Shown here: piece after piece, positions 1-60,808 of the stretch
Layout of the letters: each line of letters starts with the position of its first letter
Numbering within the stretch: the stretch's first letter is position 1
IMG/VR virus record: IMGVR_UViG_3300032295_003128
Span: 8,116-72,115 of that record
Reading direction: 5' to 3' (one strand)
Length of the DNA: 64,000 nucleotides
Source: a virus
Lineage: Duplodnaviria; Caudoviricetes
Made by a program: the position numbers and the translations under genes
The notes under the pieces: generated by a model
What the model saw: only the letters and a program-made list of their open reading frames with translations
Told to the model about the DNA's origin: nothing
Databases searched by the model: none

Positions 1-1284
1 GCGAAACAGCAGCTCGGCATCAAGGGCGAGTGGGTCTCCCACTGCACCCTGCCCCGCCTCAAAGCCATGCTCAAGGGCGAGATGACTATCGCCGACGCGC
101 AAGCCGCTTCCCTCGCTGACCAAGCGAAGAAAGCGGGCCTCTCGCTCGGCGGCGGCATCGACGCCACTGCGCTCAAGCCGCTTGAAGCCAAGCTCACCGA
201 GCTGGCAGGTATCATATCGTCGCTCGACGACGAGGTGACTACGGCCAAGTCCGAAGCGGCCAAGCTCGTCGGCGACTTGCACACGGAGATGTCCGATCGG
301 CTCACCGAGTCGCACGATGCCTTCACCAAGCTGCAAGATGCCGTCACCTCGGCGCTCGCCAGCGGCGGTTCGGCTGCGGCCAAGGTCATCGCTCCGATCC
401 TCGGGGTGCCGACGCCTTCCTCGTCTGACCCCGTGGTCATGGCGCTGGAGATGTTCTGCGCTCCAGGCCGTGCGATCAAGCCGCTGCTCGTCAAGGGCGG
501 CCAAGGCGCGGGCAAGACCTACGCTGCGCGTCAGCACGGCATGACCGCCGGCTTTGACCGCTGCGTGGAGTTCGGTGTCCACTCCCAGACCGAGGCCGTG
601 GACTTCCTCGGTATGATGATGCCGAGCGGCGAGTGGCTCGACGGCCCGTTGACCGAGGCGTTCCGCGCTTCGGCTCTGGGACAGCTCGTCTTGCTTATCA
701 TTGACGAGATCTATCGTGGTCAGAACGGCGCTCGCACCCCGCTCCTGACCGCCACGTCTCCGGCCACGCTGCCCAGCGGCGAGCGGGTCTATCGTCTCCG
801 CACGGGTCGCGCCATCGTCGATCCAGTGACCGGCGTTCACACCTCCGAGATCATCGAGGCTCCTTGCCAGAACCTCGCCATCGTTGCCACGACCAACGTC
901 GGGGCCGAGTTCAACGTCGATCCGGGCTGCCCCGCCGAGCGCGAGCGGTTCATCCCTATCCACGTCGAGGTTGACGAGGCCAAGATCCGCGCTGTCTGCG
1001 GCGCTATCGCCACGGCCAAGGGCTACAGCTCCTCCGTGGTTGACCGCACACTCGCCTTCTACCGCGAGTGCAACGTCCTCAAGACGGACGGGTTCATCGA
1101 ACTCTGCCCGTCCACCCGCATCCTCTCCGAGGCGATCCAATACGCCGACAGCGAGGCCAACGTGAAGTCGATGCTGCGCGAACTCGGATTGCACATCTGG
1201 GTCGGCACCACCATCGAAGGCAAGCCCGAGGAAGAGCAAGTCAAGCGCGTCACCACCGCACTCGACAAGGCCTTCGGGAAATAA
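1..1284 (+). CDS. MoxR/CbbQ-type AAA+ ATPase with N-terminal coiled coil (5'-truncated by window edge)
   Basis: Walker A GGQGAGKT, Walker B LLIIDEI, sensor-1 VATTN, AERERF arginine finger. The frame is open from base 1, so the true start lies upstream. Confidence 0.85.
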   Translation, partial: AKQQLGIKGEWVSHCTLPRLKAMLKGEMTIADAQAASLADQAKKAGLSLGGGIDATALKPLEAKLTELAGIISSLDDEVTTAKSEAAKLVGDLHTEMSDRLTESHDAFTKLQDAVTSALASGGSAAAKVIAPILGVPTPSSSDPVVMALEMFCAPGRAIKPLLVKGGQGAGKTYAARQHGMTAGFDRCVEFGVHSQTEAVDFLGMMMPSGEWLDGPLTEAFRASALGQLVLLIIDEIYRGQNGARTPLLTATSPATLPSGERVYRLRTGRAIVDPVTGVHTSEIIEAPCQNLAIVATTNVGAEFNVDPGCPAERERFIPIHVEVDEAKIRAVCGAIATAKGYSSSVVDRTLAFYRECNVLKTDGFIELCPSTRILSEAIQYADSEANVKSMLRELGLHIWVGTTIEGKPEEEQVKRVTTALDKAFGK

Positions 1285-1347
1285 CCTGACCACCTAACGC
1301 GTAACCGCCCTTTCCAATCTGGGAGGGGGCGGCCGCACCAAAACACC

Positions 1348-1782
1348 ATGTTTAATTCAAGCGGATTCATCGAGGGTATCAAATCCCTCTACAATCAGGG
1401 CGTTCGTAAGATCGTCACTGATTTCAGCGGCGGAGGCGACTCCGGCGATATCAACTACATTGCGTTCTATAGCGCGGGCGGTTCGGAAAAGCTAACCGTC
1501 GAAGAGCCACTCGACTGGCGGGATGAGATGCACAACATCATCACCAGCGAGGTTCATTGCGACTGGTATAACAACGAGGGAGGCGGCGGTTCGATCGTCA
1601 TCAATCTCGAAGTCAACCCGCCGACCATCGAGGTCAACTCGTATTGGAACGAGACTGTCTGCCGCGACGAGCCGACTGTGACTGACACGCTGGATCCGAC
1701 GCTCGTGCTGCCGAAGCCGGCCGTCCCAGAACACGCGGCTGTCCGCGCTGCCAAGAAGCTGCCGAAACGGGGGGCTTCGTAA
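1348..1782 (+). CDS. DUF6878-like protein
   Basis: FSGGGDSG and DWYNNEGGGG motifs; directly upstream of the DUF6915-like gene. Confidence 0.7.
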   Translation: MFNSSGFIEGIKSLYNQGVRKIVTDFSGGGDSGDINYIAFYSAGGSEKLTVEEPLDWRDEMHNIITSEVHCDWYNNEGGGGSIVINLEVNPPTIEVNSYWNETVCRDEPTVTDTLDPTLVLPKPAVPEHAAVRAAKKLPKRGAS

Positions 1783-2190
1783 ATGCACCCTTACCATCAC
1801 GCGCTCTCCAGCGCCAAAAGGTTCGGAGGCCAGCCCGAGGACTACCTCGCGATCCATCACTGGTTCGACGAGTCGAAGGAACAGTTCGCCAACTTCCGCC
1901 ATCGTGCGCTGCGTCATCACGCGCAGGGCATCTACGAGTGTGAGCGCAAGTTCGGCATCACCATGACCAACTCGGACGGGCGCACGTTGCCTGTTCGTTA
2001 CATCGGCGAGCAGCACGTCAACGAGGACATCGGGTTCATCCCGTCCCTCCAAGACTGGCTCTCCGCCATCGTCCCAGAGCCGTGGATGCGGAGTCGCCCC
2101 CATGGCGTGGACAAGAACACCGAGGACGAGGCCGTCAATCGACGGACTGTCCGCAAAACCAACACAACCAAGAAGGAGATCAAACTATGA
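1783..2190 (+). CDS. DUF6915-like His-rich protein
   Basis: HPYHHALSSAKRFGG..PEDY..IHHWFDESK, RHRALRHH, EQHVNED. Confidence 0.75.
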   Translation: MHPYHHALSSAKRFGGQPEDYLAIHHWFDESKEQFANFRHRALRHHAQGIYECERKFGITMTNSDGRTLPVRYIGEQHVNEDIGFIPSLQDWLSAIVPEPWMRSRPHGVDKNTEDEAVNRRTVRKTNTTKKEIKL

Positions 2191-2871: not shown

Positions 2872-2872
2872 C

Positions 2873-3574: not shown

Positions 3575-3619
3575 CCATGAGCTACGAATTCCACACCGAA
3601 GAAAACGAAAGGAACTACC

Positions 3620-4287: not shown

Positions 4288-4335
4288 ACGGGTTACTAAC
4301 CTTGCATGTCTACAACCTCAATGGAGAAACAAACC

Positions 4336-4878: not shown

Positions 4879-4987
4879 CCAATTAGGGATTGCGGCGGAG
4901 TGGTTTCTTCTCTGGTTAGTATCATCCCCTGTCCAGTAACCGCATAAAAGCTGGACACTTTTCATAACCGTGCTACCTTCCCACCTC

Positions 4988-5857: not shown

Positions 5858-6124
5858 ATGGCTACTTATAAAGGCAAACAAGTCTCGCTGTATAAGCCCC
5901 GCAAAATGAAGGGGATTACCCCGGCTGGTAAAAAGAAATCTGTCTTCGTCCCCGGGAAAAAAGAGGGAACGGCAAAAGTCGTTCACTTTGGGGACTCCTC
6001 GATGTCGGACTACACGCAGCACCGAGACAAGAAGCGCCGCGCCAACTTCCATTCGCGGCACAACTGCGCCGACAAAAAGGACAAGACCAAGGCGGGATAT
6101 TGGGCCTGTAAGAATTTATGGTGA
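5858..6124 (+). CDS. basic protein, DUF5754-like
   Basis: KVVHFGD...DYTQHRDKKRRANFHSRH...AGYWAC motif. Confidence 0.6.
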   Translation: MATYKGKQVSLYKPRKMKGITPAGKKKSVFVPGKKEGTAKVVHFGDSSMSDYTQHRDKKRRANFHSRHNCADKKDKTKAGYWACKNLW

Positions 6125-7283: not shown

Positions 7284-7958
7284 TTATCCTTCTTGGGACG
7301 CTGGCGTTTCTGGCTGCTGTTGCGAGCTACCAGAAGTATTGAGCCAGCACCAAGAGGGAAAGCGGTAACCTTCGCTGGCTTTCTCGGCCACGTCTTGGGG
7401 CAGCCACACCTTTGCCCTGAGGTTGCAGCCGCACACGCCGCAGTTGGCAAGGCTGGCGTCCCGCACTGTCTGGCGCGCTCCGATGATCGAGAAGATCGTC
7501 GAGGCCAGATTGGTGCAGACGAAGCATCCACTCATCCCCACGTTCAGGGGACAGGACGCGCAGGTGATTGCTCGTCGATTGGCGGTCTCTTCGTCTACCA
7601 ATCCTTTCTCTCCCAGAGCGGCGCGGACCGCCCCCAGAAAGCGCATGACGTCGTCGATGTTGAATTCCTTTTTTAACCCGACATCGCTGAGCAATTCACT
7701 TGCCTCAGAGTCGCGAGCTGCGAGTTCCTCTTCGGACAGAAGCGGCTGGCATCGTCCCAGATCTTGCTTGGCGCAGGTGAAGTTCTCGATGTCCTGGCGC
7801 GGGTTGCCGGCGGGCAAATTGTTCGCCGCCCGGTGATCACTCACCTGCCCCACGACGAGGTCGAGGATGTTGTTCTGGAACCGGCACTCGGTCTCCGGCT
7901 GGATGTATTGCCACCCCCCTCTGGGAAGAAGCGATGCGTCGTTCCATGCGTAGTTCAT
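7284..7958 (-). CDS. Cys-rich zinc-binding protein
   Basis: CASCP, CFVC, CGVCGC, CW motifs; ATGA overlap with giant gene. Confidence 0.7.
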   Translation of the reverse strand: MNYAWNDASLLPRGGWQYIQPETECRFQNNILDLVVGQVSDHRAANNLPAGNPRQDIENFTCAKQDLGRCQPLLSEEELAARDSEASELLSDVGLKKEFNIDDVMRFLGAVRAALGEKGLVDEETANRRAITCASCPLNVGMSGCFVCTNLASTIFSIIGARQTVRDASLANCGVCGCNLRAKVWLPQDVAEKASEGYRFPSWCWLNTSGSSQQQPETPASQEG

Positions 7959-10900
7959 TGAATTTCTCTGATTCGATCGGTCAGCCCGCGCTTTTCGGCT
8001 TCTCTCACGGCATCGGGACTCGGGACGTAGGGCGGGATTTCTCCGCTCATCACCGCTTCGGTATTGTCTTCGCCGACGCCGACGGCCCGGAGCCGGTCGC
8101 GGAAAGCGGTTTGGCTCAGTCCCAGACTGCGAGCCGAGAGATACTTACGATGGTATTTCTTCGCGATACGTTCACGGGCTTCATTCGTCAGACGGAGGGC
8201 TTCAGCCACGGCGCCCGGAGCCTGCGTTCCGTTGGACAGGAAGACTCGGTTGAAGAGAGCCGACGCGTCGCGCATCTCACGCATGTAGGCCGACCCAGCG
8301 AATCCAGCACTCTGGGACAGATCGACCTCGTTGATCCGCTGTCCGGCAACTACCGCGAGAATTTCGTTGAATGGATCATACGCCCGGCCTGACTCGGTGA
8401 CTTGGCCGGTGAAAGCTTTATAGATGCGATCCGCGCTTCGAGCAGTTCCAGGGACGAACACATTCCCGACATGGATGCCGACGTTCTTGAGGATGTTTGT
8501 CGTCGAGTCCTGCGGATTGTAGATCCTCTGTCCCCGGCTGTCGGTGTTTCGAGCGACATCCATGAGAGACCCCGCCAAGAGCTGCTCACTGGCGAACGGC
8601 GATAGGGCCTCTTGAAATGCGCCTGCTGCCGCCTTGCCGAGTCCCGTGGTAATATCTTCGGCTCCGGTGACGGCTCTCCAGAACGCCCAGAGCGGCTTTT
8701 TGAGATAGTCATTCGGATCAGCAAAAGACACATCGGCAAAAGATATCTTTCCGTCTTTCCGCCCGAAGAGGAGAAGCTGGTTGTTCTTTTGCCAATCTGG
8801 GAGAAACTCGCGCAAGTCTTCTTCGTCGTCGGACGACAGGCCAGCCATCGCCATAAAAGACCCAGCTACCACGGACGGCACCGACAGCGCAGTGGTGAAG
8901 CCTGCAACGCGGCGCCAGCCGAGTTTCACCAACTCTGGGTTGCCGGACTTGATCTCGTCGAAAGCCAGCTTCAGCGTATTGACGTTCGTGCGGACGACCT
9001 CTGTCGTAAAGGTGATGAACGGCGCGATGACAAGGCCCGGCCCCTTCTTCAACTCCTGCACCCACTCTGGGGCGAGCGAATACGTCCAGTGGATGTCACG
9101 GGCGATTTGGGCGGCTTTCTTTTTCAGATCGTCTTCGGCCATTTTAGGGAACGCTTTTCGGTAATTCTCCAGCTCGGAGAAGTAGATGATCGCCTTGAAG
9201 ATGTTGTCGCCCATGGCGTAAGTGCCTTTCGCGAAGTCCCAGGTTGCGGTGATGGGGCGAGTGAGGTGCTCGAGGAAACCTTCTGGGCCTTTCGTGGACG
9301 CGGCCCGCCCCACCGACTGCATGTCGTTGAGTAGATTTTCGACAAGATTCACCGACACCGACTCACCGAAGATGCCGAGTTGAATCAATTCCTCGATGGC
9401 GTTTCGAGCTGCCGCCCGATCTTTGTAGTTCTTGAACACGTCTTGGATTGCCAAGCTGTGTCCTTTGCCGATCGCTTTGAGGTTGAAGTTTCCCGTCGAG
9501 AGAAGTTTCAGCCACCCCGACAAATAGTTGCGGACTTGCCCCGCTGCCGACCCGACTGTCGCCATCGCCATTGAGAGAGCCGTGCCCTTGGCTGCGATGT
9601 TGTAGACTGGGTTCGGCTTCTGGCGTGGGGGGAACATGCGGTAGAGACCTTCGACCATCTCCGAGTTGCCGTACATTCCGGCCAGCGGCGACAACCGCTC
9701 ATTGCCCTCGGTCGCGATTTTGACATAGCCGACCGGGCGGTCTTCCCCATTGTCGCGCAGCCAACCCTCGGACAATCCCAGTTCGCGGAATTCGGTGAGG
9801 AACTTGTGGTTGTGGACGAGGCTGGTCAGCTTCATCACTGTTTTTCCATACGACGTTTCGGGGTCGTCGTTGACGCCCCAGAGTCGCTGGATCTCCGGCG
9901 CGATGACACCCCTTTTGGTCAAGATCGAGAGATTCTTCTGACCCGGAATCCGACCGGACAGGACTTCGAGCGACGGCGAAGATTTATAGACCGCGAGAAA
10001 ACTCTCGAGCACGTTGTCCACATTCGCTGCTGACAATCCCTTAGCCGCCTGCCGATCAGCTTCGGCGCGTCCCAGGACTTGCCCTTTGGCGGCGGCTTCT
10101 TCGATCAGGCTATCCGCGTTGTCTTTGACGAGCTGACGCCTAATGAACCGACGGGCGTCGGCCATGACTTTGGTGTTCTTGCGAATCTGCTGCACCCACT
10201 TGTCCTTGAGATCGAAGATCGAGTAGCTGCGGTTGAGGTAAATGCCGAGGTTCTCGTCCACCGCCAGCTTCATGTCGCCGCCGACCATGTCGGACACTTT
10301 CTCTTGAAGCACCATGAGGTGCTCGTTCATCTCCCGGACAGTCTTCTTGATCGCTCTGGGTAGGGACTTCAGGGCGGCCTGTTGCTTGACCCGGAAGGCG
10401 GCCCGATTAAGGCGGAGGTATACCATCCGCTTCTCGCTGGCGGCCTTGGGATCGGTCAGCCGGATACGAGCGATGTCGTTGAGCTGGTCTTCGGTGAACG
10501 GGTTTTCCAAGTTACCTAGAGCCGTGGTGATCGTAGCCCGATTTACCCGGACACCGGCGTTGGCCGCCTCGCGGAGCTGGCGTCCCAGAATGCGAAGCAA
10601 GTCGTCCGCTCGGCTGGCATCGGCTTTTTGATTAAACTGCGAATCGAGGAGAAGCTGGTAGCCCCGGCGATCCATGTCACGGGTCACGGCGGTAAAAGAT
10701 TTCTCGCGAACGTAGTTGCCCGGGCCAGTCGGGATGACCTCGTCCCGGAACACACCGCCGAGGGAGAAGAACGTTTGCTCGGCTGCTGGATTGTTGTAAT
10801 CCCAATATACTCCCGCCGCCATCACACCTCCGGTTGCGGGTTTCACCGCGCCCTCGATGACGTCTCCATCTTCGTCACGTTTCGGAGACGCTGCCGCAAC

Positions 10901-19258: not shown

Positions 19259-19307
19259 TGCTAAAAGTAGCGGTTGTCAGGTTATGATGCAACTGCCTGA
19301 AACTCGA

Positions 19308-23225: not shown

Positions 23226-23244
23226 GGGTTAGCAGGTTATTATA

Positions 23245-33201: not shown

Positions 33202-33377
33202 AAGCCTGTTTTTCTCCTTTCAAGAGAGGTTTTGTGGTTATGAACCTAGTGATGTCCAAAACCGCCATTGCGGAGCCAGACGCTAGATCCAAGGTTTTCT
33301 TTACCCTCTGCGGAAAGGGCCTATACACGCAGTTGTTTTTTCGAGCCGAGTATTACCGCTACTCGTAAGCGTGAGAT

Positions 33378-39723: not shown

Positions 39724-39744
39724 ACATTTGCGGTGTGCAGGTTA

Positions 39745-39987
39745 TTACCTATTCATCAGGTGTCGGAAGCTGTCAAATACCCAAGCGGACATTGCCGCTA
39801 TGGCGGCGGCGACGCCGTAAATGGAGGACTTTGCCGTCTCTAGGTGCTTCAACCTTTCGTCGTGCTTATCGAAGACTTTGCCGAACCTCTCTTGGTTGTC
39901 CAAAATGAGGTCCACCTTAGTCTCCAGCCGCACAAGCCGCTGAGCGTCCAAGAAGTGGTCTGATTCTTTGCCGGCCATTTCATTCAT
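39745..39987 (-). CDS. XhlA-like coiled-coil membrane protein (holin-associated)
   Basis: RLVRLETKVD...RLKHLE coiled coil with C-terminal TM. Confidence 0.6.
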   Translation of the reverse strand: MNEMAGKESDHFLDAQRLVRLETKVDLILDNQERFGKVFDKHDERLKHLETAKSSIYGVAAAIAAMSAWVFDSFRHLMNR

Positions 39988-46011: not shown

Positions 46012-46025
46012 GGGTGGTCAGGTTA

Positions 46026-46274
46026 TTATAGCTTAGGGCGAAGAAATGTCACCCGGCGGACTCCGCTGGAGCGAAAAACCCGGAACGATTGACGTTCGAC
46101 CGAAGGGTTGCGGAGCATTCGCTGATACAGCCCCGAGCTTGCGAAGTCGCGATGGCTTTTCCATCCCTCTCGGCGGAGCGCCTCTTCATTGACGCCTTCA
46201 GATTCAGCCTCTATCGCCGCCCACGCCGAGTCGTAAAGATCAGACGCGGAGGGCTTTGCTTTCTTCTGGATCAT
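46026..46274 (-). CDS. hypothetical protein
   Basis: fills gap between phosphoesterase and portal. Confidence 0.5.
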   Translation of the reverse strand: MIQKKAKPSASDLYDSAWAAIEAESEGVNEEALRREGWKSHRDFASSGLYQRMLRNPSVERQSFRVFRSSGVRRVTFLRPKL

Positions 46275-47061: not shown

Positions 47062-47085
47062 GAGGTTAGTCGGTTATGATAAACG

Positions 47086-48988: not shown

Positions 48989-49115
48989 TTTTCAAATTCG
49001 TAAGTCACTCGACTTACTCTGTTAATCGGAAAGTTATGCAACATTTGTTGTGAACCTTTGTGCAAGGTTATGAATAATTTTGAACGACTTGGCACAAACT
49101 TACGTCAAAAAACAC

Positions 49116-50701: not shown

Positions 50702-50790
50702 CCGGCACTATCAGAACGTTAATATCCGTCTGCTTCCTACGTCCTAACCTCACCACCTAAACCAAATTAAACCTAAATATACCAGAAGTC

Positions 50791-51009: not shown

Positions 51010-51112
51010 ATTAGAAGACGCACTCATCAAGGCTGCGGAGGCTACCGGCTACTCCATGAGCGAAATTATCCGGCAAGCTCTCCGCAGCTCTTTGATTAAG
51101 CAAGGTTCTTAA
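50921..51112 (+). CDS. CopG/RHH DNA-binding protein
   Basis: IRSFASDAELEDALIKAAEATGYSMSEIIRQAL. Confidence 0.65.
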   Translation: MDTPLCANPLPSLQKLRNPKLIRSFASDAELEDALIKAAEATGYSMSEIIRQALRSSLIKQGS

Positions 51113-51123
51113 CCGCGCAACCC

Positions 51124-51853: not shown

Positions 51854-51983
51854 AATATGTGGTGTCGTTTTCTCGTCGAATCGCCCCGAACCCCTCGTAG
51901 CCGTTGGGGCCGTAAATTTGAACGTACTCAGGGTCAGACGCCAGCGCGGGCGCGAGAAAAAGCATAAAGATCACGAATTTCAT
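51810..51983 (-). CDS. small secreted protein (signal peptide)
   Basis: MKFVIFMLFLAPALA-SD signal; fills the only gap, on the opposite strand. Confidence 0.5.
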   Translation of the reverse strand: MKFVIFMLFLAPALASDPEYVQIYGPNGYEGFGAIRRENDTTYFTDYREPIREFPTD

Positions 51984-52020
51984 ACAAGTAATAGACTTAA
52001 GCGATACCCCCGCGTTCAAA

Positions 52021-52692
52021 ATGACTCCCGAGCAAGTACGAGCCCTCTACGACCAAAGATACGCCGAAACATACGATGCGACATTCCGGGAGGGATCAAC
52101 GGCGTCACCCCTGACCAAACACGAAAGATCGATCCTCAAGCTACTGCTCGACAAAGGAGGGCCGTGGCTAGACGTCGGATGCGGCACCGGCTATTTTCTA
52201 AAGCAGTTCCCCCACATCGAGCGGACAGGGTTAGACTTGTCGCCCGCCATGTTGCGGATCGCCCAAAAAGCCAACCCTTCGGCAACGCTAGTCGGAGGGA
52301 ACTTTCTGGAGCCGCACCCACAATGGAACGGAAAATTCCGGGTGGTAACATGTATGTGGTATGCCTACACCCTAGTAGACTCCATCCGTGACGTCGAAGT
52401 CGCGATAAACAACATGGCCGACTGGACCTCTACGGACGGATTTCTGTTCGTTCCAGTTTGCGATCCACACTCTTTTGTGGGCGAGTTTCCAGACAGCCAA
52501 CCGTGGTGGGACGCCAAATCGTCAGTCCGAGTAACCGGCGTCACATGGAATTTTGAACAGCCCGGCAAGAACCACGTTCACTTAGTTAGCCCGACTACCG
52601 AGGTCATGCGGGAGATGCTCTCCAGACGTTTCCATAGTGTGACCAAGATCTCATATGAGACCGTCGCGTTTCTCGCTAAACACAAACGATGA
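52021..52692 (+). CDS. class I SAM-dependent methyltransferase (non-DNA type)
   Basis: WLDVGCGTG, GLDLSPAML. Confidence 0.85.
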   Translation: MTPEQVRALYDQRYAETYDATFREGSTASPLTKHERSILKLLLDKGGPWLDVGCGTGYFLKQFPHIERTGLDLSPAMLRIAQKANPSATLVGGNFLEPHPQWNGKFRVVTCMWYAYTLVDSIRDVEVAINNMADWTSTDGFLFVPVCDPHSFVGEFPDSQPWWDAKSSVRVTGVTWNFEQPGKNHVHLVSPTTEVMREMLSRRFHSVTKISYETVAFLAKHKR

Positions 52693-55109
52693 AGCTCTTC
52701 CCCTACCAAAAAGAAGCCGTAGAGCGGCACCTCAAGATCCTCGACTCAGTCGGCGCTTCCTTAGACGGAACCGGCTGCGGAGGCGGGAAAACTGTTATCG
52801 CCAGCGCGGTGGCGGCCAAGTATGCGTTGAAAACCTGCGTGGTCTGCCCGAAGAGCGTCATCGCCAAGTGGGAAGACACGCTCGCGGCGTTCGGGGTCAA
52901 GCCCCTCTTTGTTCTCAACCCCGAAAAGTTGCGGAACGGGAACACCCCCTGGGTAAAAAAGATCCCGAGCGGGGGTAAAAAGACAAAGTTCGAGTGGAAT
53001 ATACCCGAGCGGTGTCTTTTGATTTTCGACGAGGCGCACGTCTGCGGCTCGGCGACGTCCCAGAACGGAAAACTCCTTGAGTCCGCCGCTGACCATTGCG
53101 TTCTCATGCTCTCGGCGACCGCTGCCGAGTCCCCTCTCCGCATGAAAGCCATCGGAGTCCAGCTCCGTCTCTTTACGCCCGGCTACTACTGGAAATGGGT
53201 CCGCGAACAAGGAGCGGTCGAGTCTCGATGGGGCGGACTAGAGTGGGATCCTAAGCGCGCTGAAAACAAAGAGAAAATGGAACGCCTCCATCATTCGATA
53301 TACGCGAATAGAGGATACCGCGTCCCGGAGGCAGTCCTGCGCGAGCAGCTCCCAGAGCTGATGATTACCGACGAACAACTATGGCTTTCCACAACCGACA
53401 AAAATGAAGTCAAAAAACTCTACGACGAAATGGCCGACCCCGAAGATCCAGGAGCGGTCAAAAACCTCCGGCAGCGTCAAGCCATCGAGAAAATCAAAGT
53501 CCCCTACCTCGTGGAGAGGGCGAAAGAAATCGTGGACGCCGGAGGATCAGCCGTCGTCTTCCTCAATTTCCACGAATCCATCGACGCCGCCCGCGTCCAT
53601 TTCGACCAAGGCTGCGTCATCGACGGACGCGAAAGCGCGGAACAGCGGCTCGAAACGCGCCGCCGGTTTCAAGCAAACGAACTGCGGACGATCATCGTCC
53701 AAATCGCGGCCGGTGGACAAAGCATCGATCTACACGACACAAGTGGTTCGTTCCCTCGCGTGGCTTTGCTGTGCCCCCAATTCAGCGGAGTTGTGGAAGA
53801 GCAGGCTATTGGACGGATCGCCCGAGTGGGGGCCCGGTCGAGGGCTCTCGTTATCCGACTGTTTGCCCCCGGAAGCGTAGAAGCGGCCGCCGCCAAACTC
53901 AGCGCCGAAAAACGCGAAAACTTAGAAATTTTGAATGAGGGCAAGAAAAGTTTGAACGAATCCGCCAGTCCCGAAGTCTCTTCTTCCATGTCCGGGTTAT
54001 CAACCTCACAACCTGCGGCCGATGCGCCCGAAATTCTTCCCGCTCACAGCGAGCATTCACCTTCATCCCTAAAACTCAAAGCTATATGCCCAGGATTCCG
54101 AAACGACCAAACCAGAGACAAATCAGCAGCCGACCGAGGGACCCTCGGCCACAAAGCGGTGGAGCTGGAAAACCTCGACGTGGTCCCACCGGACGATTCA
54201 CGTCTGCGCGAAGCTGCGGAAATGTGCCTGAAGTATCTCTCCCTGCTGCGGAAAAAGGTCGGCCCAAGCGCAAAGGAAATTCGCGAAGAAAGGTACTCGA
54301 TGCTGGATCAGTTTGGTCATATCGACCATCTGTTCCTGAACGGGCCGCAAGCCCACTTGATCGACTACAAGTTTGCGTTCAGCGCCTACGAAGCGGACTC
54401 ACCTCAATTTTGGGCCTATTGTCTCGGCGTTTGGGATAAACATCCCGAGGTCGAGGAAATCACCGCCCACGTAGTTTTACCATTTCAAGGGGTTATCGAC
54501 GTCGAGTCTTGGTCGCGGAAGTCCGACTATGAGCGGCTCTCGGCGCAAACCGCCGCGATCATCGAATCCGCTCGCCGCGATAACCCCGAGACTTACCAGA
54601 CCGGCAGCCATTGCGCGTGGTGCGGGCAACGGGCCAAATGCCCGAAGCTCAACAACCTCGCGCTGGCCGTTGCCGCCCAATACCAACCCGAAGCGCTGGA
54701 ACTTCCGGCCAAGTTCGACCCCGCACTGATCGACGATCCCGAGGTCATTGCCGTCGCCAAAAAACTCGGCCCGATCTTGAAGGCGTGGGCCGAGAAAGTC
54801 GATCAACGTGCGCTCGAAATGCGCTTGGTCGAGGGCATCGAGATTCCCGGCTTCGAGTTGGCCGAGCGGTCGGCTCCTTTCAAAATCACGGACGCGCAGG
54901 CCGCATGGGAAGTGGTCAAAGATCACATGACGCCCGAAGCCTTCGCTGGGTGCGCGGAAGTAAAAATCGGAGCGCTGGAGAAGGCGTTCGTCCGCACCGC
55001 CAAGCGCGGCACCATCAAATCCGCCAAGGAGACTTTGCGCTGCGCCCTTCTGGACGCCAACGCAGCTCAGTCCGAAGGCACCAGCCAATACCTGAGGAAG
55101 AGCAAATGA
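52689..55109 (+). CDS. SF2 helicase fused to Cas4/DUF2800-like PD-(D/E)XK nuclease
   Basis: LFPYQ, GCGGGKT, DEAH, SAT, QAIGRIAR; then HSPSS..CPG, GHID, IDYK, CAWC...C. Confidence 0.85.
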   Translation: MKLFPYQKEAVERHLKILDSVGASLDGTGCGGGKTVIASAVAAKYALKTCVVCPKSVIAKWEDTLAAFGVKPLFVLNPEKLRNGNTPWVKKIPSGGKKTKFEWNIPERCLLIFDEAHVCGSATSQNGKLLESAADHCVLMLSATAAESPLRMKAIGVQLRLFTPGYYWKWVREQGAVESRWGGLEWDPKRAENKEKMERLHHSIYANRGYRVPEAVLREQLPELMITDEQLWLSTTDKNEVKKLYDEMADPEDPGAVKNLRQRQAIEKIKVPYLVERAKEIVDAGGSAVVFLNFHESIDAARVHFDQGCVIDGRESAEQRLETRRRFQANELRTIIVQIAAGGQSIDLHDTSGSFPRVALLCPQFSGVVEEQAIGRIARVGARSRALVIRLFAPGSVEAAAAKLSAEKRENLEILNEGKKSLNESASPEVSSSMSGLSTSQPAADAPEILPAHSEHSPSSLKLKAICPGFRNDQTRDKSAADRGTLGHKAVELENLDVVPPDDSRLREAAEMCLKYLSLLRKKVGPSAKEIREERYSMLDQFGHIDHLFLNGPQAHLIDYKFAFSAYEADSPQFWAYCLGVWDKHPEVEEITAHVVLPFQGVIDVESWSRKSDYERLSAQTAAIIESARRDNPETYQTGSHCAWCGQRAKCPKLNNLALAVAAQYQPEALELPAKFDPALIDDPEVIAVAKKLGPILKAWAEKVDQRALEMRLVEGIEIPGFELAERSAPFKITDAQAAWEVVKDHMTPEAFAGCAEVKIGALEKAFVRTAKRGTIKSAKETLRCALLDANAAQSEGTSQYLRKSK

Positions 55110-55223
55110 CGATGGGCGGGGATGGGACGCTGAAATTCCGAAGGATTGGAAAACTTTGAAGGGTTCTTAACCCAACAACCGAGGCAGCGGCACTGCCAAA
55201 CAACAAACAAAACTAAACATCGT

Positions 55224-57078: not shown

Positions 57079-57269
57079 GTGACTACCCACTAGGCCGCAT
57101 CGAATTCAGCGATCCGGACATTGTTCGGCCGGAACAGACTCTCTCCGTCACACTCGGCGTTTTGTGCGGCATCCAAGTCGAACAGGAAGACTTGATCGAC
57201 GAACTCTGCGACTTCGCGGGCTACCTCCTCACCCTTATCTGCGAACTCGATGGTAGCGATCGACTTTGA
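57075..57269 (+). CDS. acidic hypothetical protein
   Basis: ATGA overlap; precedes PolA. Confidence 0.5.
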   Translation: MSDYPLGRIEFSDPDIVRPEQTLSVTLGVLCGIQVEQEDLIDELCDFAGYLLTLICELDGSDRL

Positions 57270-59052
57270 GTCTTACTACGACTCCGAGGTCAGTGTAACG
57301 ACCCTCGGCGCGTACAACTACGCCCGGAATACGGACATTTACATGGTCGCCATGTACTCCGATTCCGGATGGGCGTACGTCGGTCTGCCGAAAGACGCGC
57401 CTTGGCACGCAGTCACCGGCCAAGAGTGGGTCATGCACAACGCGGCCTTCGACCTGACCCTACTTGGTGCGCTGATCGAGCAAGGCGTGGTCATCGACAC
57501 GCAACCTTCAAACGTCTACGACACCGCCGACATGGCCGCGTACCTCGGCTACCCGAGATCCCTGAAAGAAGCGGCGAAGCATCTCCTCGGACTGGAATTG
57601 AGCAAAGGCACCCGGGACAACATGAAGGGCCGCCACTACCATCTGCCGCCAGGAGTCATCGTCCCAAAGCGGAAGCGCATGGACAACGATTTCAAAAAGG
57701 AGATCGCCCGATACGCCCTGAAAGACGCCAAGGCCACTCTCCTGCTCTGGAGATGCCACGGACACAAATGGCCGGCGCACGAACGCGAGATCTCCAAGAT
57801 GACCCGCGAGATGACCACGAAGGGCGTTCCGCTGAGTCTGCCTCGGCTGGAAGCCGCCCGCGTTACCCTCGAAGAGGAAGCCGCCAGAGCCGCTGCGCTG
57901 ATCCCGTGGGCAGGCAAGAGCGACGTCGCGCTCCTATCACTCCAAGCGATCCGCGATCAATGCGACCTCGAAGGCATCCGCAAACCGACCACGTTCGCCG
58001 AAAAGACTACCGAAGGGGCGGAGTGGGAAGCCGAGTTCGCCGACCAATTCCCTTGGGTACGCGCCGTCAGAGATTACCGCAAAGCCAATAAACACATGAA
58101 AACTGTGGAGGCGATGCGGAAACGCCTTAAACCAGACTCGGTCTGGATGCCATACGACATGCGATACTTCGGCGCCCTCACCGGCCGCGACAGCGGCTCC
58201 GGAGGATGGAACGCCCAGAACCTACCCAAAGGTCACGTCGCCGGAGTCGATATCCGCAATCTCATCGAGGCGCCCTCTGGGCATACCTTAATCATCGCCG
58301 ACTTGGCCCAAATCGAAGCGCGGTGCATCTGCTACCTCGCCGGGGACAAGAAGAGTTTGGAACTCATGGCCGGTGGCGCCGACGTTTACGAAGCACACGC
58401 CCGAGCCACGATGGGCTACACCGACCCTCGCTCGCTCAAAGAAGTGGATAACAAGATGAGGCAGCTCGCCAAAGCGCGTGTCCTCGGCCTCGGCTACGGA
58501 TGCGGCGCGGAAAAGTTCCGCTACGTCGCCAAGATCATGGCAGGACTCGACATATCTTTAGACGAAGCGCAAGAAATTGTGCAGTCCTACCGCAGCACCA
58601 ACCCGCTCATCATCGGACTGTGGAGGAAGCTGGACCGCGCAATGCGGGCAGCCGTCAACGAGAAGAACCAAACTTTCGAGCTGACGCTGCCTTCGGGCAG
58701 GACGCTCAGCTACCGCGAAGTCACGTCTTCGGGCGAAGGGCGCGGCGACTACCGCTGCAAGATACCCCGGGGCGGAACGATGGCGCCGACCAAACTGTAT
58801 GGTGGGCTCCTCGCAGAAAACGCAACCCAGGCGTTTGCGCGGGACGTTTTCATGGATCGCTGCGCTGCCCTACGCGACGCGGGAGCCGACATCATCATGC
58901 GGGTTCACGACGAAGTTGTCATAATGTGCGAAGAAAGATTGAGCGAATCCTTCAAAGCCGATGTCGAAGCAATACTCTCCACCCCGCCGGATTGGTGTTC
59001 GACCCTTCCGCTTGGAGCCGAAGCCACAATCTCAAAGTTCTACATGAAATGA
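57250..59052 (+). CDS. polA: family A DNA polymerase with 3'-5' exonuclease
   Basis: AIDFESY (ExoI), HNAAFD (ExoII), YALKD (ExoIII), DLAQIEAR (A), RQLAKARVLGLGYG (B), VHDE (C). Confidence 0.95.
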   Translation: MVAIDFESYYDSEVSVTTLGAYNYARNTDIYMVAMYSDSGWAYVGLPKDAPWHAVTGQEWVMHNAAFDLTLLGALIEQGVVIDTQPSNVYDTADMAAYLGYPRSLKEAAKHLLGLELSKGTRDNMKGRHYHLPPGVIVPKRKRMDNDFKKEIARYALKDAKATLLLWRCHGHKWPAHEREISKMTREMTTKGVPLSLPRLEAARVTLEEEAARAAALIPWAGKSDVALLSLQAIRDQCDLEGIRKPTTFAEKTTEGAEWEAEFADQFPWVRAVRDYRKANKHMKTVEAMRKRLKPDSVWMPYDMRYFGALTGRDSGSGGWNAQNLPKGHVAGVDIRNLIEAPSGHTLIIADLAQIEARCICYLAGDKKSLELMAGGADVYEAHARATMGYTDPRSLKEVDNKMRQLAKARVLGLGYGCGAEKFRYVAKIMAGLDISLDEAQEIVQSYRSTNPLIIGLWRKLDRAMRAAVNEKNQTFELTLPSGRTLSYREVTSSGEGRGDYRCKIPRGGTMAPTKLYGGLLAENATQAFARDVFMDRCAALRDAGADIIMRVHDEVVIMCEERLSESFKADVEAILSTPPDWCSTLPLGAEATISKFYMK

Positions 59053-59264
59053 CCAATAAGTTCCTAGAAACCTTTCAACAAGTCGGCGGATGGAAAACTC
59101 CGGAGCGGTTCGGCCGCGAACACGATGGCTTCGTCACCATCGAGGAAAACGCCCGCTCTCACAACCATGACGCGTTCTTTTGGGACGCCGACATGGGCCA
59201 TGAGCGTTTGCAAACAATGTGGATGGACGGCCATTACTTTGTGCGTAGGTTGTTAACCAGATAA
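59049..59264 (+). CDS. hypothetical protein
   Basis: ATGA overlap with polA; start MTNKFL. Confidence 0.6.
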   Translation: MTNKFLETFQQVGGWKTPERFGREHDGFVTIEENARSHNHDAFFWDADMGHERLQTMWMDGHYFVRRLLTR

Positions 59265-59268
59265 CCTT

Positions 59269-60783
59269 ATGCGATACCTCTCGGTTTGCAGCGGCATCGA
59301 AGCCGCAAGCGTGGCGTGGGAACCCCTTGGCTGGTCCCCCGCAGCGTTCTCTGAAATTGAGCCATTTCCGGCCGCTGTCCTCGCCCACCATTGGCCGGAA
59401 GTCCCTAACTTGGGCGACATGAACAACTATGAAGACTGGAACAACTTGGACGCAATCGACCTTTTGGCCGGAGGAACGCCATGCCAGTCCTTTAGTGTCG
59501 CCGGGCTGCGAAAAGGACTCAAAGACCCCCGTGGAGGACTCATGCTTACCTACCTTGAAATCGCTCGGCGTTTCCGGCCTCGATGGGTTGTGTGGGAAAA
59601 TGTCCCCGGCGTCCTGTCTAGCGACGGAGGACGGGATTTTGGTTCCTTCCTCGGGGCGTTGGGGGAGCTGGGGTATGGCTGGGCCTACCGCGTCTTGGAC
59701 GCTCAATGGGTCCGAACACAACGACACCCCCGCGCCGTCCCGCAGCGCAGGAGACGTGTCTTCGTTGTCGGATGTATTGGAGACCGGACCCGTGCCGCCA
59801 AGGTTCTTTTTGAGTCCCAAAGCGTGTGCAGGGATTCTGCGGAGAGCCGAAAAAAGAAAGAAGACGTTGCCGGAACATTTAAGGCTCGCGCTCGAAGCGG
59901 GGGCTGGTGCCAAGACGTCGATCTCGCCAGCTCTGGATACATGCAAGTCGCCGGAGCCCTCGATACCGAGTGCGGCGGGAACAAACTGACCCACCAGACC
60001 TTGCTCAACGGCCATGCGCTGGCCGTGGGCGCTCTCTCCGCAGACGATGGAGAACAAGGACTGACGACGATCCAAGCCGCTGCCTCGGGGATGCTGATCG
60101 CCTTCCAACAAAATACCCGCGACGAAGTCCGCCTCATAGGCGGCGACGGCAAGATCGCGGGGGCTTTGGCTGCCGAGGCAGGGATGAAGCAACAGAACTA
60201 TCTGGCTCCGGCCCGAATGGTCGCCTTTGGCGAATACGTCGAAGACGGCACCGCGTCAGCCATGAAAGCGCGGGATTACAAGGACGCCACGGATCTGGTT
60301 GCCGTGGATGCCTACAACCAGACCGTGAGCGATACCTCGCAAGCCCTCTCGTCTTCCGCGAGCGACATCCACCACACCGGAGGAGCTATTGTTCCGGCGG
60401 TCTCCAAATCAATCCGAACGCCTAGCGGCGGGATTGACCGCGAAGACATGCACACCATTGTTCCGGCGGTCGCGGTACAGGACGTGAGCGACCGCGACAA
60501 GAAACAGAACGGACGTGGATGGAGCGAGGACGGAACTAGCTACACGCTCGACGCGGCGGCGACGCAAGGTGTCGCTCGGGGCCTAGCAGTCAGACGGCTT
60601 ACTCCGACTGAATGTGAAAGGCTCCAAGGATTTCCCGATAACCACACCTTGATCCCGTGGAAGAAGAAACCGGCGGATCAATGCCCCGACGGCCCACGCT
60701 ACAAAGCCTTGGGCAACTCGATGGCCGTGAACTGCATGGAATGGATCGGCCAACGCATCGACTTCTACGACAAGCAATCATAA
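59269..60783 (+). CDS. dcm: C5 cytosine DNA methyltransferase with long variable region
   Basis: SVCSGIEA, GGTPCQSFS, WENVPG, QRRRRVF, RRLTPTECERLQGFP, YKALGNS. Confidence 0.95.
   Translation: MRYLSVCSGIEAASVAWEPLGWSPAAFSEIEPFPAAVLAHHWPEVPNLGDMNNYEDWNNLDAIDLLAGGTPCQSFSVAGLRKGLKDPRGGLMLTYLEIARRFRPRWVVWENVPGVLSSDGGRDFGSFLGALGELGYGWAYRVLDAQWVRTQRHPRAVPQRRRRVFVVGCIGDRTRAAKVLFESQSVCRDSAESRKKKEDVAGTFKARARSGGWCQDVDLASSGYMQVAGALDTECGGNKLTHQTLLNGHALAVGALSADDGEQGLTTIQAAASGMLIAFQQNTRDEVRLIGGDGKIAGALAAEAGMKQQNYLAPARMVAFGEYVEDGTASAMKARDYKDATDLVAVDAYNQTVSDTSQALSSSASDIHHTGGAIVPAVSKSIRTPSGGIDREDMHTIVPAVAVQDVSDRDKKQNGRGWSEDGTSYTLDAAATQGVARGLAVRRLTPTECERLQGFPDNHTLIPWKKKPADQCPDGPRYKALGNSMAVNCMEWIGQRIDFYDKQS
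59429..59989 (+). CDS. nested +1-frame ORF resembling the beta polypeptide of split C5 MTases (M.EcoHK31I-type)
   Basis: GLCGKMSP...SSGRWGSWGM...SLSDVLE..VPPRFFLSPKACAGILRRAEKRKKTLPEHL; true start uncertain. Confidence 0.6.
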   Translation: MKTGTTWTQSTFWPEERHASPLVSPGCEKDSKTPVEDSCLPTLKSLGVSGLDGLCGKMSPASCLATEDGILVPSSGRWGSWGMAGPTASWTLNGSEHNDTPAPSRSAGDVSSLSDVLETGPVPPRFFLSPKACAGILRRAEKRKKTLPEHLRLALEAGAGAKTSISPALDTCKSPEPSIPSAAGTN

Positions 60784-60808
60784 CCCAACAACCCACAAGG
60801 AGAATGAA

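What the first reader, a model, noticed from the sequence alone, without database searches (positions are those of the whole stretch)
1282..60793. Genome-wide, transcription-oriented 13-bp motif TAACC-N5-ACC in gene gaps: candidate stoperator-like regulatory network
Seen: 13 exact copies in short intergenic gaps, each reading TAACC-N5-ACC on the sense strand of the downstream gene, 1-53 nt before its start. + strand: TAACCTGACCACC 1282, TAACCGTGCTACC 4965, TAACCTCACCACC 50745, TAACCGCGCAACC 51110, TAACCCAACAACC 55168 and 60781, TAACCAGATAACC 59254. - strand: TAACCTGACAACC 19284-19272 (giant protein), TAACCTGCTAACC 23239-23227, TAACCACAAAACC 33240-33228 (capsid), TAACCTGCACACC 39744-39732 (holin), TAACCTGACCACC 46025-46013 (portal), TAACCGACTAACC 47076-47064. 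The 1282 and portal copies share 15 identical nt. Eight fixed bases predict roughly 2 chance hits over both strands of the whole window and far below 1 in intergenic DNA. Known: mycobacteriophage L5 repressor silences its genome through asymmetric 13-bp stoperators placed in gene gaps and oriented with transcription, and RHH proteins such as MetJ bind 8-bp-period arrays; here ACC recurs at an 8-nt period. Inference: these are binding sites for a phage regulator (probably one of the RHH proteins behind the integrase) covering early, replication, structural and lysis genes. Alternatives are a phage promoter element (several copies are preceded by TATAAT/TATCAT/CATCAT ending on the motif's first T) or an RNA-level translation signal. 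Coding regions were not exhaustively scanned.
Basis: partly seen in the sequence, partly recalled or inferred. Interest (0 to 1): 0.85.

Follow-up and report, generated by a model that had tools for sequence, protein, structure and literature searches.

The report
Promoter-like repeated motif in freshwater phage
A short DNA word that sits in the gaps before many genes of an uncultured lake phage, always pointing the way the genes are read, is real and shared by the phage's relatives; it most likely marks where transcription starts rather than a repressor roadblock, but only experiments can settle that.

Summary
TAACC-N5-ACC occurs 13 times in the window (0.78 expected) and 19 times in the whole 72-kb phage genome. 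Every copy lies in or at the edge of a gene gap and points with the local genes. The real unit is about 16 nt, T-[C/A]-A-TAACC-nn-A-c-a-ACC. Five related complete phage genomes carry 26-42 sites each of the same core, R-TAATAAC-(C)-nn-R-Y-A-A.

Over six genomes, 131 of 190 scored sites lie in the 8.9% of DNA that is intergenic, and 119 of those 131 are co-oriented. The layout is an AT-rich box, a loose 4-5 nt spacer, then a conserved pyrimidine-A. Start codons begin no closer than 12 nt from the box, often with no ribosome-binding site. Each genome also has its own palindrome family beside some sites.

I read the motif as a promoter core (about 0.5) that often gives leaderless or short-leader mRNAs. 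The reading factor is unknown: there is no -35 box, no canonical -10 and no phage RNA polymerase. The stoperator-like repressor reading (0.2) and an RNA-level start-associated or processing signal (0.2) are not excluded. No RNA data exist. This is a new member of a known kind, of moderate interest.

The parts
1279..1294 (+). Motif copy (AAATAACC..ACC). Its TAA is the stop codon of the upstream AAA+ ATPase-like gene. A GC-rich hairpin follows, then an ATG at 1348.
4962..4977 (+). Motif copy (TCATAACC..ACC), 10 nt before the ATG at 4988 (start supported by an orthologue in G004).
19272..19287 (-). Motif copy (TCATAACC..AACC), 13 nt before the ATG (19258) of the 3767-aa giant protein.
23227..23242 (-). 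Motif copy (TAATAACC..AACC), 1 nt before the ATG at 23225; no SD.
33228..33243 (-). Motif copy (TCATAACC..AACC), 26 nt before the ATG (33201) of the N4-gp56-like capsid gene, with a GGAG-type SD between. It sits at the downstream end of a 716-nt gap. A site at the same relative place occurs in 5 of 6 genomes.
39732..39747 (-). Motif copy (TAATAACC..CACC). Its first TAA is the stop of the upstream 80-aa gene. It lies 8 nt before the ATG at 39723 (58-aa lysis-cassette ORF).
46013..46028 (-). Motif copy (TAATAACC..CACC). Its first TAA is the stop of the upstream 82-aa gene. It lies 1 nt before the ATG (46011) of the 780-aa 'portal' gene; no SD.
47064..47079 (-). Motif copy (TCATAACC..AACC) just after the large terminase gene, 2 nt before the ATG at 47061. 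A weak -35-like TTTGCT lies upstream. Relatives have a TTGAC-type -35 at the equivalent site.
50742..50757 (+). Motif copy (TCCTAACC..CACC), 33 nt before the ATG at 50791, behind the integrase.
51107..51122 (+). Motif copy (TCTTAACC..AACC). Its TAA is the stop of the RHH_1 gene (50882-51112). It lies 24 nt before the GTG at 51147.
55165..55180 (+). Motif copy (TCTTAACC..AACC) in the 114-nt gap after the helicase-exonuclease gene, 43 nt before the ATG at 55224.
59251..59266 (+). Motif copy (TGTTAACC..AACC) at the downstream end of a 216-nt gap, 2 nt before the ATG (59269) of the 504-aa methyltransferase-like gene. There is no SD, and no credible upstream gene within about 200 nt.
60778..60793 (+). 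Motif copy (TCATAACC..AACC). Its TAA is the stop of the 504-aa gene. It lies 15 nt before the ATG at 60809, with a GGAG SD between.
49067..49073 (-). TCATAAC core without the downstream ACC, in the divergent gap between the integrase and the terminase-first leftward gene block. Co-oriented copies sit at the same junction in G001, G003, G004 and G005 but not in G002. Here it might instead be one of several CATAAC-like integrase arm-type repeats.

Best explanation
The motif is the core of a promoter family specific to this phage lineage. It has an AT-rich -10-like box (TAATAA/C in relatives; T-C/A-A-TAAC here). Four to six loosely conserved bases follow, then a conserved pyrimidine-A where transcription would begin.

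Genes whose ATG lies 12-20 nt from that first T would get leaderless or very short-leader mRNAs. The other genes would get 15-45-nt leaders, only some with an SD. In the early region, genome-specific palindromes abut some copies and would act as operators, or as 5' hairpins.

Shown: the sites, their orientation, their placement, their conservation and the box/spacer/Y-A geometry.

Inferred: that RNA polymerase starts there. Which factor reads the box is unknown. There is no -35 and no canonical A(-11)/T(-7) hexamer, so either the unknown host's sigma factor has an unusual -10 preference or an unrecognised phage factor (in the manner of T4 gp55) is needed.
For: 1. Non-random, oriented and intergenic. 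There are 19 of 19 exact copies in gaps and co-oriented in the genome. Over six genomes there are 190 weight-matrix (PWM) sites against 27 in reversed-sequence nulls. Of these, 131 of 190 lie in the 8.9% of DNA that is intergenic, and 119 of those 131 are co-oriented.

2. Promoter-like geometry in 132 strong sites: T1 126, A2 109 (C 22), A3 123, T4 129, A5 132, A6 130, C7 123; positions 9-10 weak; purine at 11 in 120; pyrimidine at 12 in 123; A at 13 in 111.

3. Start-codon distances. Of 103 sites with a start within 150 nt, 3 have it closer than 12 nt, 7 at exactly 12, and 29 at 20 nt or less. An SD-like 4-mer is present in 3 of 29 sites at d<=20 and 1 of 16 at d 21-28, against 23 of 58 at d>=29. 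Some short-distance cases have no upstream gene to couple to: window 59251 lies about 200 nt from the previous gene, and G002 8410 lies 351 nt from it with the ATG at d=12.

4. In gaps of at least 80 nt, 29 of 58 sites lie in the last quarter next to the downstream start. Examples are the capsid site at the end of a 716-nt gap and the site at 59251.

5. Positional conservation. A site lies 35-42 nt before the capsid ATG in 5 of 6 genomes. The site after the terminase gene carries a TTGAC-type -35 at 16-18 nt in G001, G002 and G003.

6. The core is family-wide while the palindromes are genome-specific. Palindrome centres recur at about -8, -23 and +25 from the box in G000, G001 and G003. That is the usual promoter-operator layout. 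In three early gaps of G000 the order is GC-rich hairpin, palindrome, motif, gene.

7. A co-oriented core copy sits at the head of the leftward gene block, in the integrase-terminase junction, in 5 of 6 genomes.
Against: No transcript data: no RNA run holds this DNA, so no start site is shown.

The box is not a canonical sigma-70 -10 in any register: it lacks T at -7 or a conserved A at -11. A -35-like hexamer with 5 of 6 matches is present in only 5 of 132 sites, against 1.0% of random positions. A sigma-70 consensus scan of the early 8.2 kb called none of the motif sites.

No phage RNA polymerase or sigma factor was recognised in 40 PHROG and 36 Pfam protein scans.

The same motif precedes early, replication, structural and lysis genes, which leaves temporal control unexplained.

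Two copies (genome 6068; window 1279) sit on the upstream stop codon and are followed at once by a strong hairpin, an odd place for a promoter. In gaps of at least 80 nt, 11 of 58 sites sit on or just after (<=22 nt) the upstream stop codon. A few sites have the ATG 7-9 nt from the box (G004 53982, three in G003).

The palindrome association holds for only 13 of 36 palindrome copies (those within 50 nt of a site) and is absent in G004 and G005.

Gene calls in the relatives are my own crude ones. The PWM statistics are partly circular, because sites were selected with the matrix they define.
Confidence: 0.5

Rival explanations
1. Stoperator-like network. The asymmetric site is bound by a phage DNA-binding protein, for example one of the small proteins behind the integrase. 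That protein silences the genome in lysogeny by blocking initiation and, depending on orientation, elongation.
For: The descriptive features match Cluster A stoperators (PMC9283540, PMC6550527, passages read): more than 20 asymmetric sites per genome, in short gaps and at promoters, oriented with transcription.

The phage is temperate: it has an integrase, an RHH_1 protein at 50882-51112 and an attP-like tRNA fragment (by eye).

The sites cover all lytic gene classes evenly, as a global silencer would, and none precedes the integrase.

Genome-specific 'dialects' at positions 8-12 suggest a phage-encoded reader. AACC recurs at an 8-nt period in G000, G001 and G005.
Against: The core TAATAAC is kept in six genomes with 29-74% identical core proteins. 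Repressor sites of heteroimmune Cluster A subclusters differ (PMC6550527), and a different, fully genome-specific palindrome family fits the operator role better.

Conservation is split into a box and a Y-A separated by a loose spacer.

A roadblock has no reason to avoid the first 12 nt before an ATG, nor to sit at the start-proximal end of long gaps.

No L5-repressor homologue was found (a weak single-sequence test). No protein is linked to the site.
Confidence: 0.2
2. RNA-level start-associated signal. Within polycistronic mRNA the motif is a processing site, or a binding site for a protein or the ribosome. It would define or activate the downstream cistron, like the start-associated sequences (SAS) of Cluster K mycobacteriophages with their subcluster-specific inverted repeats (ESAS).
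For: The sense-strand orientation and gap location fit equally well.

Many downstream genes lack an SD: only 4 of 45 sites at d<=28 have one.

In about half of the G000 copies the motif's TAA is the stop codon of the upstream gene. Strong hairpins flank the motif on either side and could protect processed ends.

The pairing of a lineage-wide asymmetric motif with genome-specific inverted repeats mirrors SAS/ESAS (PMC3203893, section on SAS read through passages).
Against: Unlike SAS, which lie 3-7 nt before the start and contain the SD core, the distance to the start codon here ranges from 12 to more than 140 nt from the box. An independent SD follows in 23 of 58 long-distance cases.

The motif has no complementarity to the anti-SD.

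No Rfam family matches.

A core copy at the integrase-terminase junction has no upstream co-directional gene.
Confidence: 0.2
3. No function of its own. The copies are remnants of a duplicated or mobile intergenic cassette, or a by-product of compact gene ends (a TAA TAA double stop plus an A/C-rich spacer).
For: Several early gaps are clearly paralogous cassettes (palindrome + motif + ...TAAC-ATG). TAACC and TAATA are the commonest stop-codon contexts in all six genomes.
Against: Sharp conservation of eight bases with no halo of one-mismatch copies. The core is retained at non-homologous gaps and before different genes across six divergent genomes. Many copies do not overlap a stop codon.
Confidence: 0.05

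Closest known systems
T4-type late promoters (TATAAATA read by gp55) and other '-10-only' phage promoter families
   Same: A single AT-rich box of about 8 bp sits around -10, with no -35. It is repeated many times before genes, always oriented with transcription, with the start a few bases downstream. (The T4 consensus and the gp55 role are recalled, not from a call.)
   Different: The sequence is different (R-TAATAAC). No gp55-like or sigma-like gene was recognised. The box precedes all gene classes, not only late genes, and the phage is temperate.
Stoperators/operators of Cluster A mycobacteriophages (L5, Bxb1, TipsytheTRex)
   Same: More than 20 asymmetric sites of 13-16 bp per genome, in short gene gaps and at promoters, oriented with transcription, in a temperate phage (PMC9283540, PMC6550527, passages read).
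   Different: No homologue of the monomeric HTH+Stoperator repressor. The core is conserved across divergent relatives while separate palindromes vary. The motif is AT-rich with promoter-like geometry. Binding and roadblock activity are untested.
Start-associated sequences (SAS) and extended SAS of Cluster K mycobacteriophages
   Same: A 13-bp asymmetric motif conserved across subclusters lies just upstream of many starts. Upstream stop codons are often inside it. It is partnered with inverted repeats whose sequence differs between subclusters. Its function is unknown (PMC3203893, passages read).
   Different: SAS lie 3-7 nt from the start codon, contain AGGAG and are confined to non-structural genes. 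Here the distance is variable (12 to more than 140 nt from the box), there is no SD core and all gene classes are covered.
Caulobacter RpoD -10 consensus GCtANAWC (as an example of -10 boxes ending in C)
   Same: The 3' five bases A-N-A-W-C match ATAAC of the motif. A few sites have a TTGAC(G) -35 at a suitable distance (PMC8144410, passage read).
   Different: The 5' GCt does not match. Most sites have no -35. The host is unknown. This is a weak lead only.
Promoters of single-subunit phage RNA polymerases (T7-like; N4 virion polymerase hairpin promoters)
   Same: A contiguous conserved word of about 17 nt repeated through the genome. The gene order resembles N4: a giant virion protein gene, an N4-gp56-like capsid gene and a terminase gene on one strand.
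   Different: No such polymerase was found. There is no PF00940 match. The giant protein has no PDB match as a single sequence or as a profile. It aligns to N4 vRNAP only over about 130 aa around an HExxH motif, outside the polymerase domain (probability 31%). Its relatives carry polyvalent-protein domains. An ATG at 12 nt from the box also does not fit a -17..+1 promoter.

Membership tests
Cluster A stoperator system | More than 20 asymmetric sites of about 13 bp per genome | tested here: met
   19 exact copies and 25 PWM sites in G000; 26-42 in relatives
Cluster A stoperator system | Sites in short intergenic spaces and promoters, oriented with transcription | tested here: met
   131 of 190 sites are intergenic and 119 of those 131 are co-oriented; 19 of 19 in G000
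Cluster A stoperator system | Cognate monomeric repressor with HTH plus Stoperator domain | tested here: not met
   Six-frame search of the genome with L5 gp71 found no match at E<=10. This is a single-sequence search, so a distant analogue is not excluded.
Cluster A stoperator system | Site consensus diverges together with immunity among related phages | tested here: inconclusive
   The TAATAAC core is shared by six genomes, with only 'dialects' at positions 2 and 8-12. The fully genome-specific elements are the palindromes.
Cluster A stoperator system | Repressor binding and orientation-dependent block of elongation | not testable with these tools
   Needs EMSA or DAP-seq and reporter assays.
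Sigma-70-type bacterial promoter | -10 hexamer with A at -11 and T at -7 | tested here: not met
   No register of R-TAATAAC gives both. In G000 the second base is C in 13 of 19 copies.
Sigma-70-type bacterial promoter | -35 hexamer 16-18 nt upstream | tested here: not met
   A match of 5 of 6 or better in 5 of 132 sites against 1.0% of random positions; 4 of 6 or better in 15.2% against 10.0%. No upstream information in G000.
Sigma-70-type bacterial promoter | Purine start 5-8 nt after the box, preceded by a pyrimidine | tested here: met
   Y12 in 123 of 132 sites and A13 in 111 of 132. This is sequence conservation only; no start site was mapped.
Phage '-10-only' promoters read by a phage sigma-like factor (T4 late type) | AT-rich box of about 8 bp near -10 without a -35, repeated before genes | tested here: met
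Phage '-10-only' promoters read by a phage sigma-like factor (T4 late type) | Phage-encoded sigma-like or gp55-like factor | tested here: not met
   None was recognised among 40 proteins scanned with PHROGs and 36 with Pfam. Many small ORFs have no family, so absence is not shown.
Single-subunit RNA polymerase promoters (T7/N4) | Phage encodes a T7-like or N4-like RNA polymerase | tested here: not met
   The only hint is phrog_2206 at E=3e-4 over aa 2075-2426, which maps to an HExxH segment outside the N4 polymerase domain.
Cluster K start-associated sequences (SAS/ESAS) | Motif 3-7 nt upstream of the start codon and containing the SD core | tested here: not met
   The distance from the box to the start is 12 to more than 140 nt, and the motif has no G-rich SD core.
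Cluster K start-associated sequences (SAS/ESAS) | Motif conserved across the lineage and partnered with lineage-specific inverted repeats | tested here: met
   Only 13 of 36 palindrome copies lie within 50 nt of a site.

The most novel reading that the evidence does not exclude
The motif is not a promoter but the target of a conserved phage-encoded protein. It would form a genome-wide, orientation-dependent control network in a lineage of uncultured temperate lake phages, working together with immunity-specific palindromes. That would be a counterpart, outside the mycobacteriophages, of stoperators or of the still unexplained SAS/ESAS pairs.
Probability: 0.2. Interest if true: 0.75.

Novelty: new member of a known kind. 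Interest (0 to 1): 0.45.

Why it matters
If the promoter reading is right, the motif gives a ready transcription map (about 25-40 units per genome) for a widespread, uncultured family of temperate freshwater phages. At least 65 related contigs were found. It points to frequent leaderless or SD-less expression, and to a -10 box that no canonical sigma-70 rule explains. That is a clue either to the unknown host's polymerase or to an unrecognised phage transcription factor.

If instead a phage protein binds it, this would be the first stoperator-like or SAS-like network outside actinobacteriophages that my literature searches turned up.

In either case, the combination of a lineage-wide asymmetric motif with genome-specific palindromes is a clean system for studying how immunity specificity evolves separately from the core expression signal.

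Tried and rejected
1. RNA evidence: no RNA holder is listed for window 43600-53500. Read laying was not used, because only DNA contigs were on offer.

2. Host or prophage context: two scans of genome contigs, one with the 780-aa protein and one with an 8-sequence profile, found no relative. There is no tRNA gene in the window. The host stays unknown, so I could not test whether the motif is a generic host signal.

3. My early idea that the phage is N4-like, with a virion RNA polymerase reading the motif or the palindromes, is rejected. The 558-aa and 405/449-aa early proteins are a VWA/CobT-like and MoxR/NorQ-like pair, not polymerase subunits.

4. Known phage relatives: tblastn of the capsid protein against 50,697 phage records found no match.

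5. Rfam at gathering thresholds found no family in the window.

6. The sigma-70 and terminator consensus scan of the early 8.2 kb called none of the motif sites. Terminator-like sites were at chance, 10 against 8.1 expected.

7. Literature: a search for 'TAATAAC' + promoter + phage listed 9 of the 10 papers holding all three terms. The one phage genome paper has the word only in cloning primers. I found no description of this motif.

8. Earlier notes of this scan: none for this genome or for the 780-aa protein.

9. I considered and dropped, by inspection against recalled consensus sequences only: IHF, DnaA, CtrA, LexA, sigma-28, sigma-54 and ECF-type sites, RNase E sites, and a terminator role. 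The terminator role is contradicted because in long gaps the motif is start-proximal in 29 of 58 cases.

10. I did not try to identify the reading protein by co-variation of motif 'dialects' with protein alleles; six genomes are too few. Supplementary files of the cited papers were not available.

Full report
OBSERVATION

Shuffles gave a mean of 0.78 and a largest count of 3, and 0 of 100 reached 13. The window is bases 8116-72115 of a complete 72,115-bp virus record with 123-bp terminal repeats. The whole record has 19 exact copies, 13 on + and 6 on -, while the backwards-read control pattern has none.

The genome has one rightward gene block (57.2 kb through the ends to 15.4 kb) and one leftward block (15.4-57.1 kb). 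All 19 copies point with their block. In my curated gene map only 6.4% of the genome is intergenic. Of the 19 copies, 18 lie in or straddle a gap. The 19th overlaps only a doubtful GTG start, and an orthologue supports an ATG 10 nt downstream. Copies with one mismatch show no clear excess, 39 against 28.0 +/- 4.8 expected, so the exact copies form a sharp class.

THE REAL UNIT

Aligning the 19 copies extends the motif three bases upstream and shows preferences inside N5. T at -3 is found in 18 of 19 copies, C at -2 in 13 of 19 and A at -1 in 14 of 19. Within N5, A is found in 13 of 19, c in 11 of 19 and a in 10 of 19. This gives T-C/A-A-TAACC-nn-A-c-a-ACC. There is no information further upstream.

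RELATIVES

Of five complete relatives, three have 11-13 exact copies and two have none. In all five, however, the most over-represented 8-mers are TAATAACC (26 copies against 1.05 expected, and 24 against 1.33), GTAATAAC (19 against 1.13) or ATAATAAC (12 against 0.74). Weight matrices refined per genome give 25, 36, 26, 42, 28 and 33 sites, against 4, 3, 4, 3, 5 and 8 in reversed-sequence nulls. The consensus sequences are variations on R-TAATAAC-(C)-nn-R-Y-A-A-c-c.

Pooled over the six genomes, 131 of 190 sites lie in the 8.9% of DNA that I call intergenic, and 119 of those 131 are co-oriented with the downstream gene. Of the 59 sites in coding DNA, 42 are co-oriented. Gene calls in the relatives are my own heuristic ones, and some 'coding' sites only reflect over-long ORF starts.

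ANATOMY THAT BEARS ON MECHANISM

In 132 strong sites the invariant part is T1, A3, T4, A5, A6, C7 (123-132 of 132). Positions 9-10 are loose. Then comes a purine at 11 (120 of 132), a pyrimidine at 12 (123) and A at 13 (111). That is the shape of a -10 box, a discriminator and a Y-R start.

Start codons respect it. Among 103 sites with a start within 150 nt, only 3 have it closer than 12 nt, 7 have it at exactly 12, and 29 at 20 nt or less. SD-like 4-mers are nearly absent at short distance (3 of 29 at d<=20; 1 of 16 at d 21-28) and present in 23 of 58 cases at d>=29. The background is 153 of 482 called genes.

Translational coupling cannot explain every short case. The copy at window 59251 lies about 200 nt from the previous credible gene and 2 nt from the ATG of a 504-aa gene. 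G002 8410 lies 351 nt from the previous gene, with its ATG at d=12.

In gaps of at least 80 nt, 29 of 58 sites lie in the last quarter next to the downstream start, 11 lie on or just after (<=22 nt) the upstream stop codon, and 18 lie in between. A site lies 35-42 nt before the capsid ATG in 5 of 6 genomes (the capsid identity rests). The site after the large terminase gene has a TTGAC-type -35 at 16-18 nt in three relatives. Overall, though, only 5 of 132 sites have such a -35.

PALINDROMES

Each genome has its own palindrome family confined to its small-gene (early) region:
- 8 copies of a 16-20-bp palindrome in G000, at genome 1484-8026, just outside the window;
- 3, 5, 13, 3 and 4 copies of unrelated palindromes in G001-G005.

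In G000, G001 and G003 their centres recur at about -8, -23 or +25 from the first T of the box. In all, 13 of 36 copies lie within 50 nt of a site, and none does in G004 or G005.

In three early gaps of G000 the order is strong GC-rich hairpin, palindrome, motif, gene. In two gaps the motif sits on the upstream stop codon and is followed by the palindrome and/or a hairpin. Fold z-scores range from -3.3 to -7.4.

A lineage-wide asymmetric element next to genome-specific dyads is what one expects of a shared promoter core with immunity-specific operators. It is also the layout of the unexplained SAS/ESAS pairs of Cluster K mycobacteriophages (PMC3203893, passages read).

WHO COULD READ IT

I first suspected an N4-like virion RNA polymerase, because of the gene order, the N4-gp56-like capsid and a weak phrog_2206 hit (E=3e-4). 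That idea fails on four counts:
- There is no PF00940 match in six frames.
- There is no PDB match for the giant protein, alone or as a six-sequence profile.
- Its relatives carry polyvalent-protein domains.
- The profile aligns to N4 vRNAP only over about 130 aa around an HExxH motif at N4 residues 2221-2353 (probability 31%). That lies outside the polymerase domain, residues 998-2103 (recalled).

The large early proteins are a VWA/CobT-like and MoxR/NorQ-like pair. None of the 40 PHROG and 36 Pfam protein scans named a sigma factor or a polymerase subunit.

So the host polymerase is the default reader, yet the box fits no register of TATAAT. Its 3' half, ATAAC, matches the ANAWC of the Caulobacter RpoD -10 (PMC8144410, passage read), which is a weak lead. 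The host is unknown. A tRNA-like fragment in the integrase-terminase junction looks like attP (by eye).

WEIGHING THE READINGS

Orientation, gap location and copy number fit promoters, stoperators and RNA-level signals alike. Five things tilt me to promoters (0.5):
- the box/spacer/Y-A geometry;
- the 12-nt floor on start-codon distance, with SD-less genes;
- the start-proximal placement in long gaps;
- the conservation of the core across relatives while the palindromes diverge;
- the few sites with a proper -35.

Against that stand the lack of any transcript data, the non-canonical box, the unknown reader, the single motif class for all gene classes, and the copies followed immediately by hairpins.

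The stoperator reading (0.2) keeps its descriptive fit and the genome-specific 'dialects'. It lacks a repressor homologue and does not explain the geometry. The RNA-level reading (0.2) explains the SD-less genes and the stop-codon overlap, but not the variable distance or the junction copy.

COMPARISON AND VERDICT

This works most like a '-10-only' phage promoter family. It is not a demonstrated member of the stoperator, SAS or single-subunit-polymerase promoter systems, because a defining feature of each was tested and not met.

I found no description of the motif. A full-text search for the 7-mer with 'promoter' and 'phage' found only primers. Notes from this scan on other DNA describe the same general kind, phage-specific boxes with leaderless genes; they are unchecked and were not used as evidence.

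My verdict: a real, conserved, oriented intergenic signal, a new member of a known kind, with its mechanism unresolved between three testable readings. Interest 0.45.

Noticed in passing
L001 (= genome 1-8200, just upstream of the window) 1484-1499, 1903-1918, 2348-2363, 2945-2960, 3587-3602, 4304-4319, 6087-6102, 8011-8026: Eight copies of a 16-20-bp palindrome (arms ATCAGAA / TTCTGAT), one before almost every small early gene. They are candidate operators of the phage repressor, or 5' hairpins. Every relative has a different palindrome family in its own early region.
   Followed up: partly
window 7955-19258 (-): The 3767-aa giant protein has an invariant HExxH (about aa 2325-2329) and a highly conserved C-terminal 900 aa (phrog_22602). 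Relatives carry polyvalent-protein domains (ART, kinase and others). It shares only about 130 aa with N4 vRNAP, outside the polymerase domain. It looks like an injected polyvalent protein occupying the genomic place that vRNAP has in N4.
   Followed up: partly
window 48968-48992 (+), inside the 'ORF' 48858-48995 (-): A segment conserved in the integrase-terminase junction of G000, G002 and G003, with weaker look-alikes in G001, G004 and G005 (by eye). It reads like the T-arm and acceptor 3' end of a tRNA, so it is probably attP. The 45-aa ORF called there is then probably not a gene. Integration would separate the junction motif copy from the terminase operon. This was judged by eye against a recalled tRNA T-loop consensus; ARAGORN calls no tRNA.
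   Followed up: no
window 5858-6124 (+): An 88-aa lysine-rich DUF5754 protein is 76-90% identical in 4 of 5 relatives. That is more conserved than the capsid (54-61%) or the 780-aa protein (66-74%). Its function is unknown. It is a candidate for interaction with a conserved host machine.
   Followed up: no
L001 3505-3632, 4204-4353, 6074-6205, 7900-8049; window 1305-1332: GC-rich hairpins with 11-12-bp stems built on a repeated CTGGGAGG word and its complement, with no U-tract (z -3.3 to -7.4). They recur in the early gaps beside the motif and the palindromes. They could be U-tract-less terminators or RNA stabilisers.
   Followed up: partly
window 48996-49079: The 84-nt divergent gap holds three tandem CATAAC/CACAAC-like words 10-20 nt apart. 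They might be integrase arm-type sites rather than promoter boxes.
   Followed up: no
L001 6206-7882 and window 67-1284: An adjacent VWA/CobT-like gene (558 aa) and MoxR/NorQ-like AAA+ gene (405-449 aa) lie in the early/middle region. The pair is shared with G002 and G005 only.
   Followed up: partly
window 33202-33917: A 716-nt stretch upstream of the capsid gene has no convincing ORF on the gene strand. Its content is unexplained.
   Followed up: no
G005 (L083-L086), whole genome; G003 (L077) 57230-58559: G005 carries 28 copies of the palindrome CCCTAGGG (about 3 expected), mostly in coding DNA. G003 has 22 tandem-like copies of an 11-mer inside one 872-aa gene.
   Followed up: no
all six genomes: Only 153 of 482 crudely called genes have an SD-like 4-mer upstream, and leaders are A/C-rich. 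This suggests a host with weak Shine-Dalgarno use. The start calls are rough, so the share is a lower bound.
   Followed up: no
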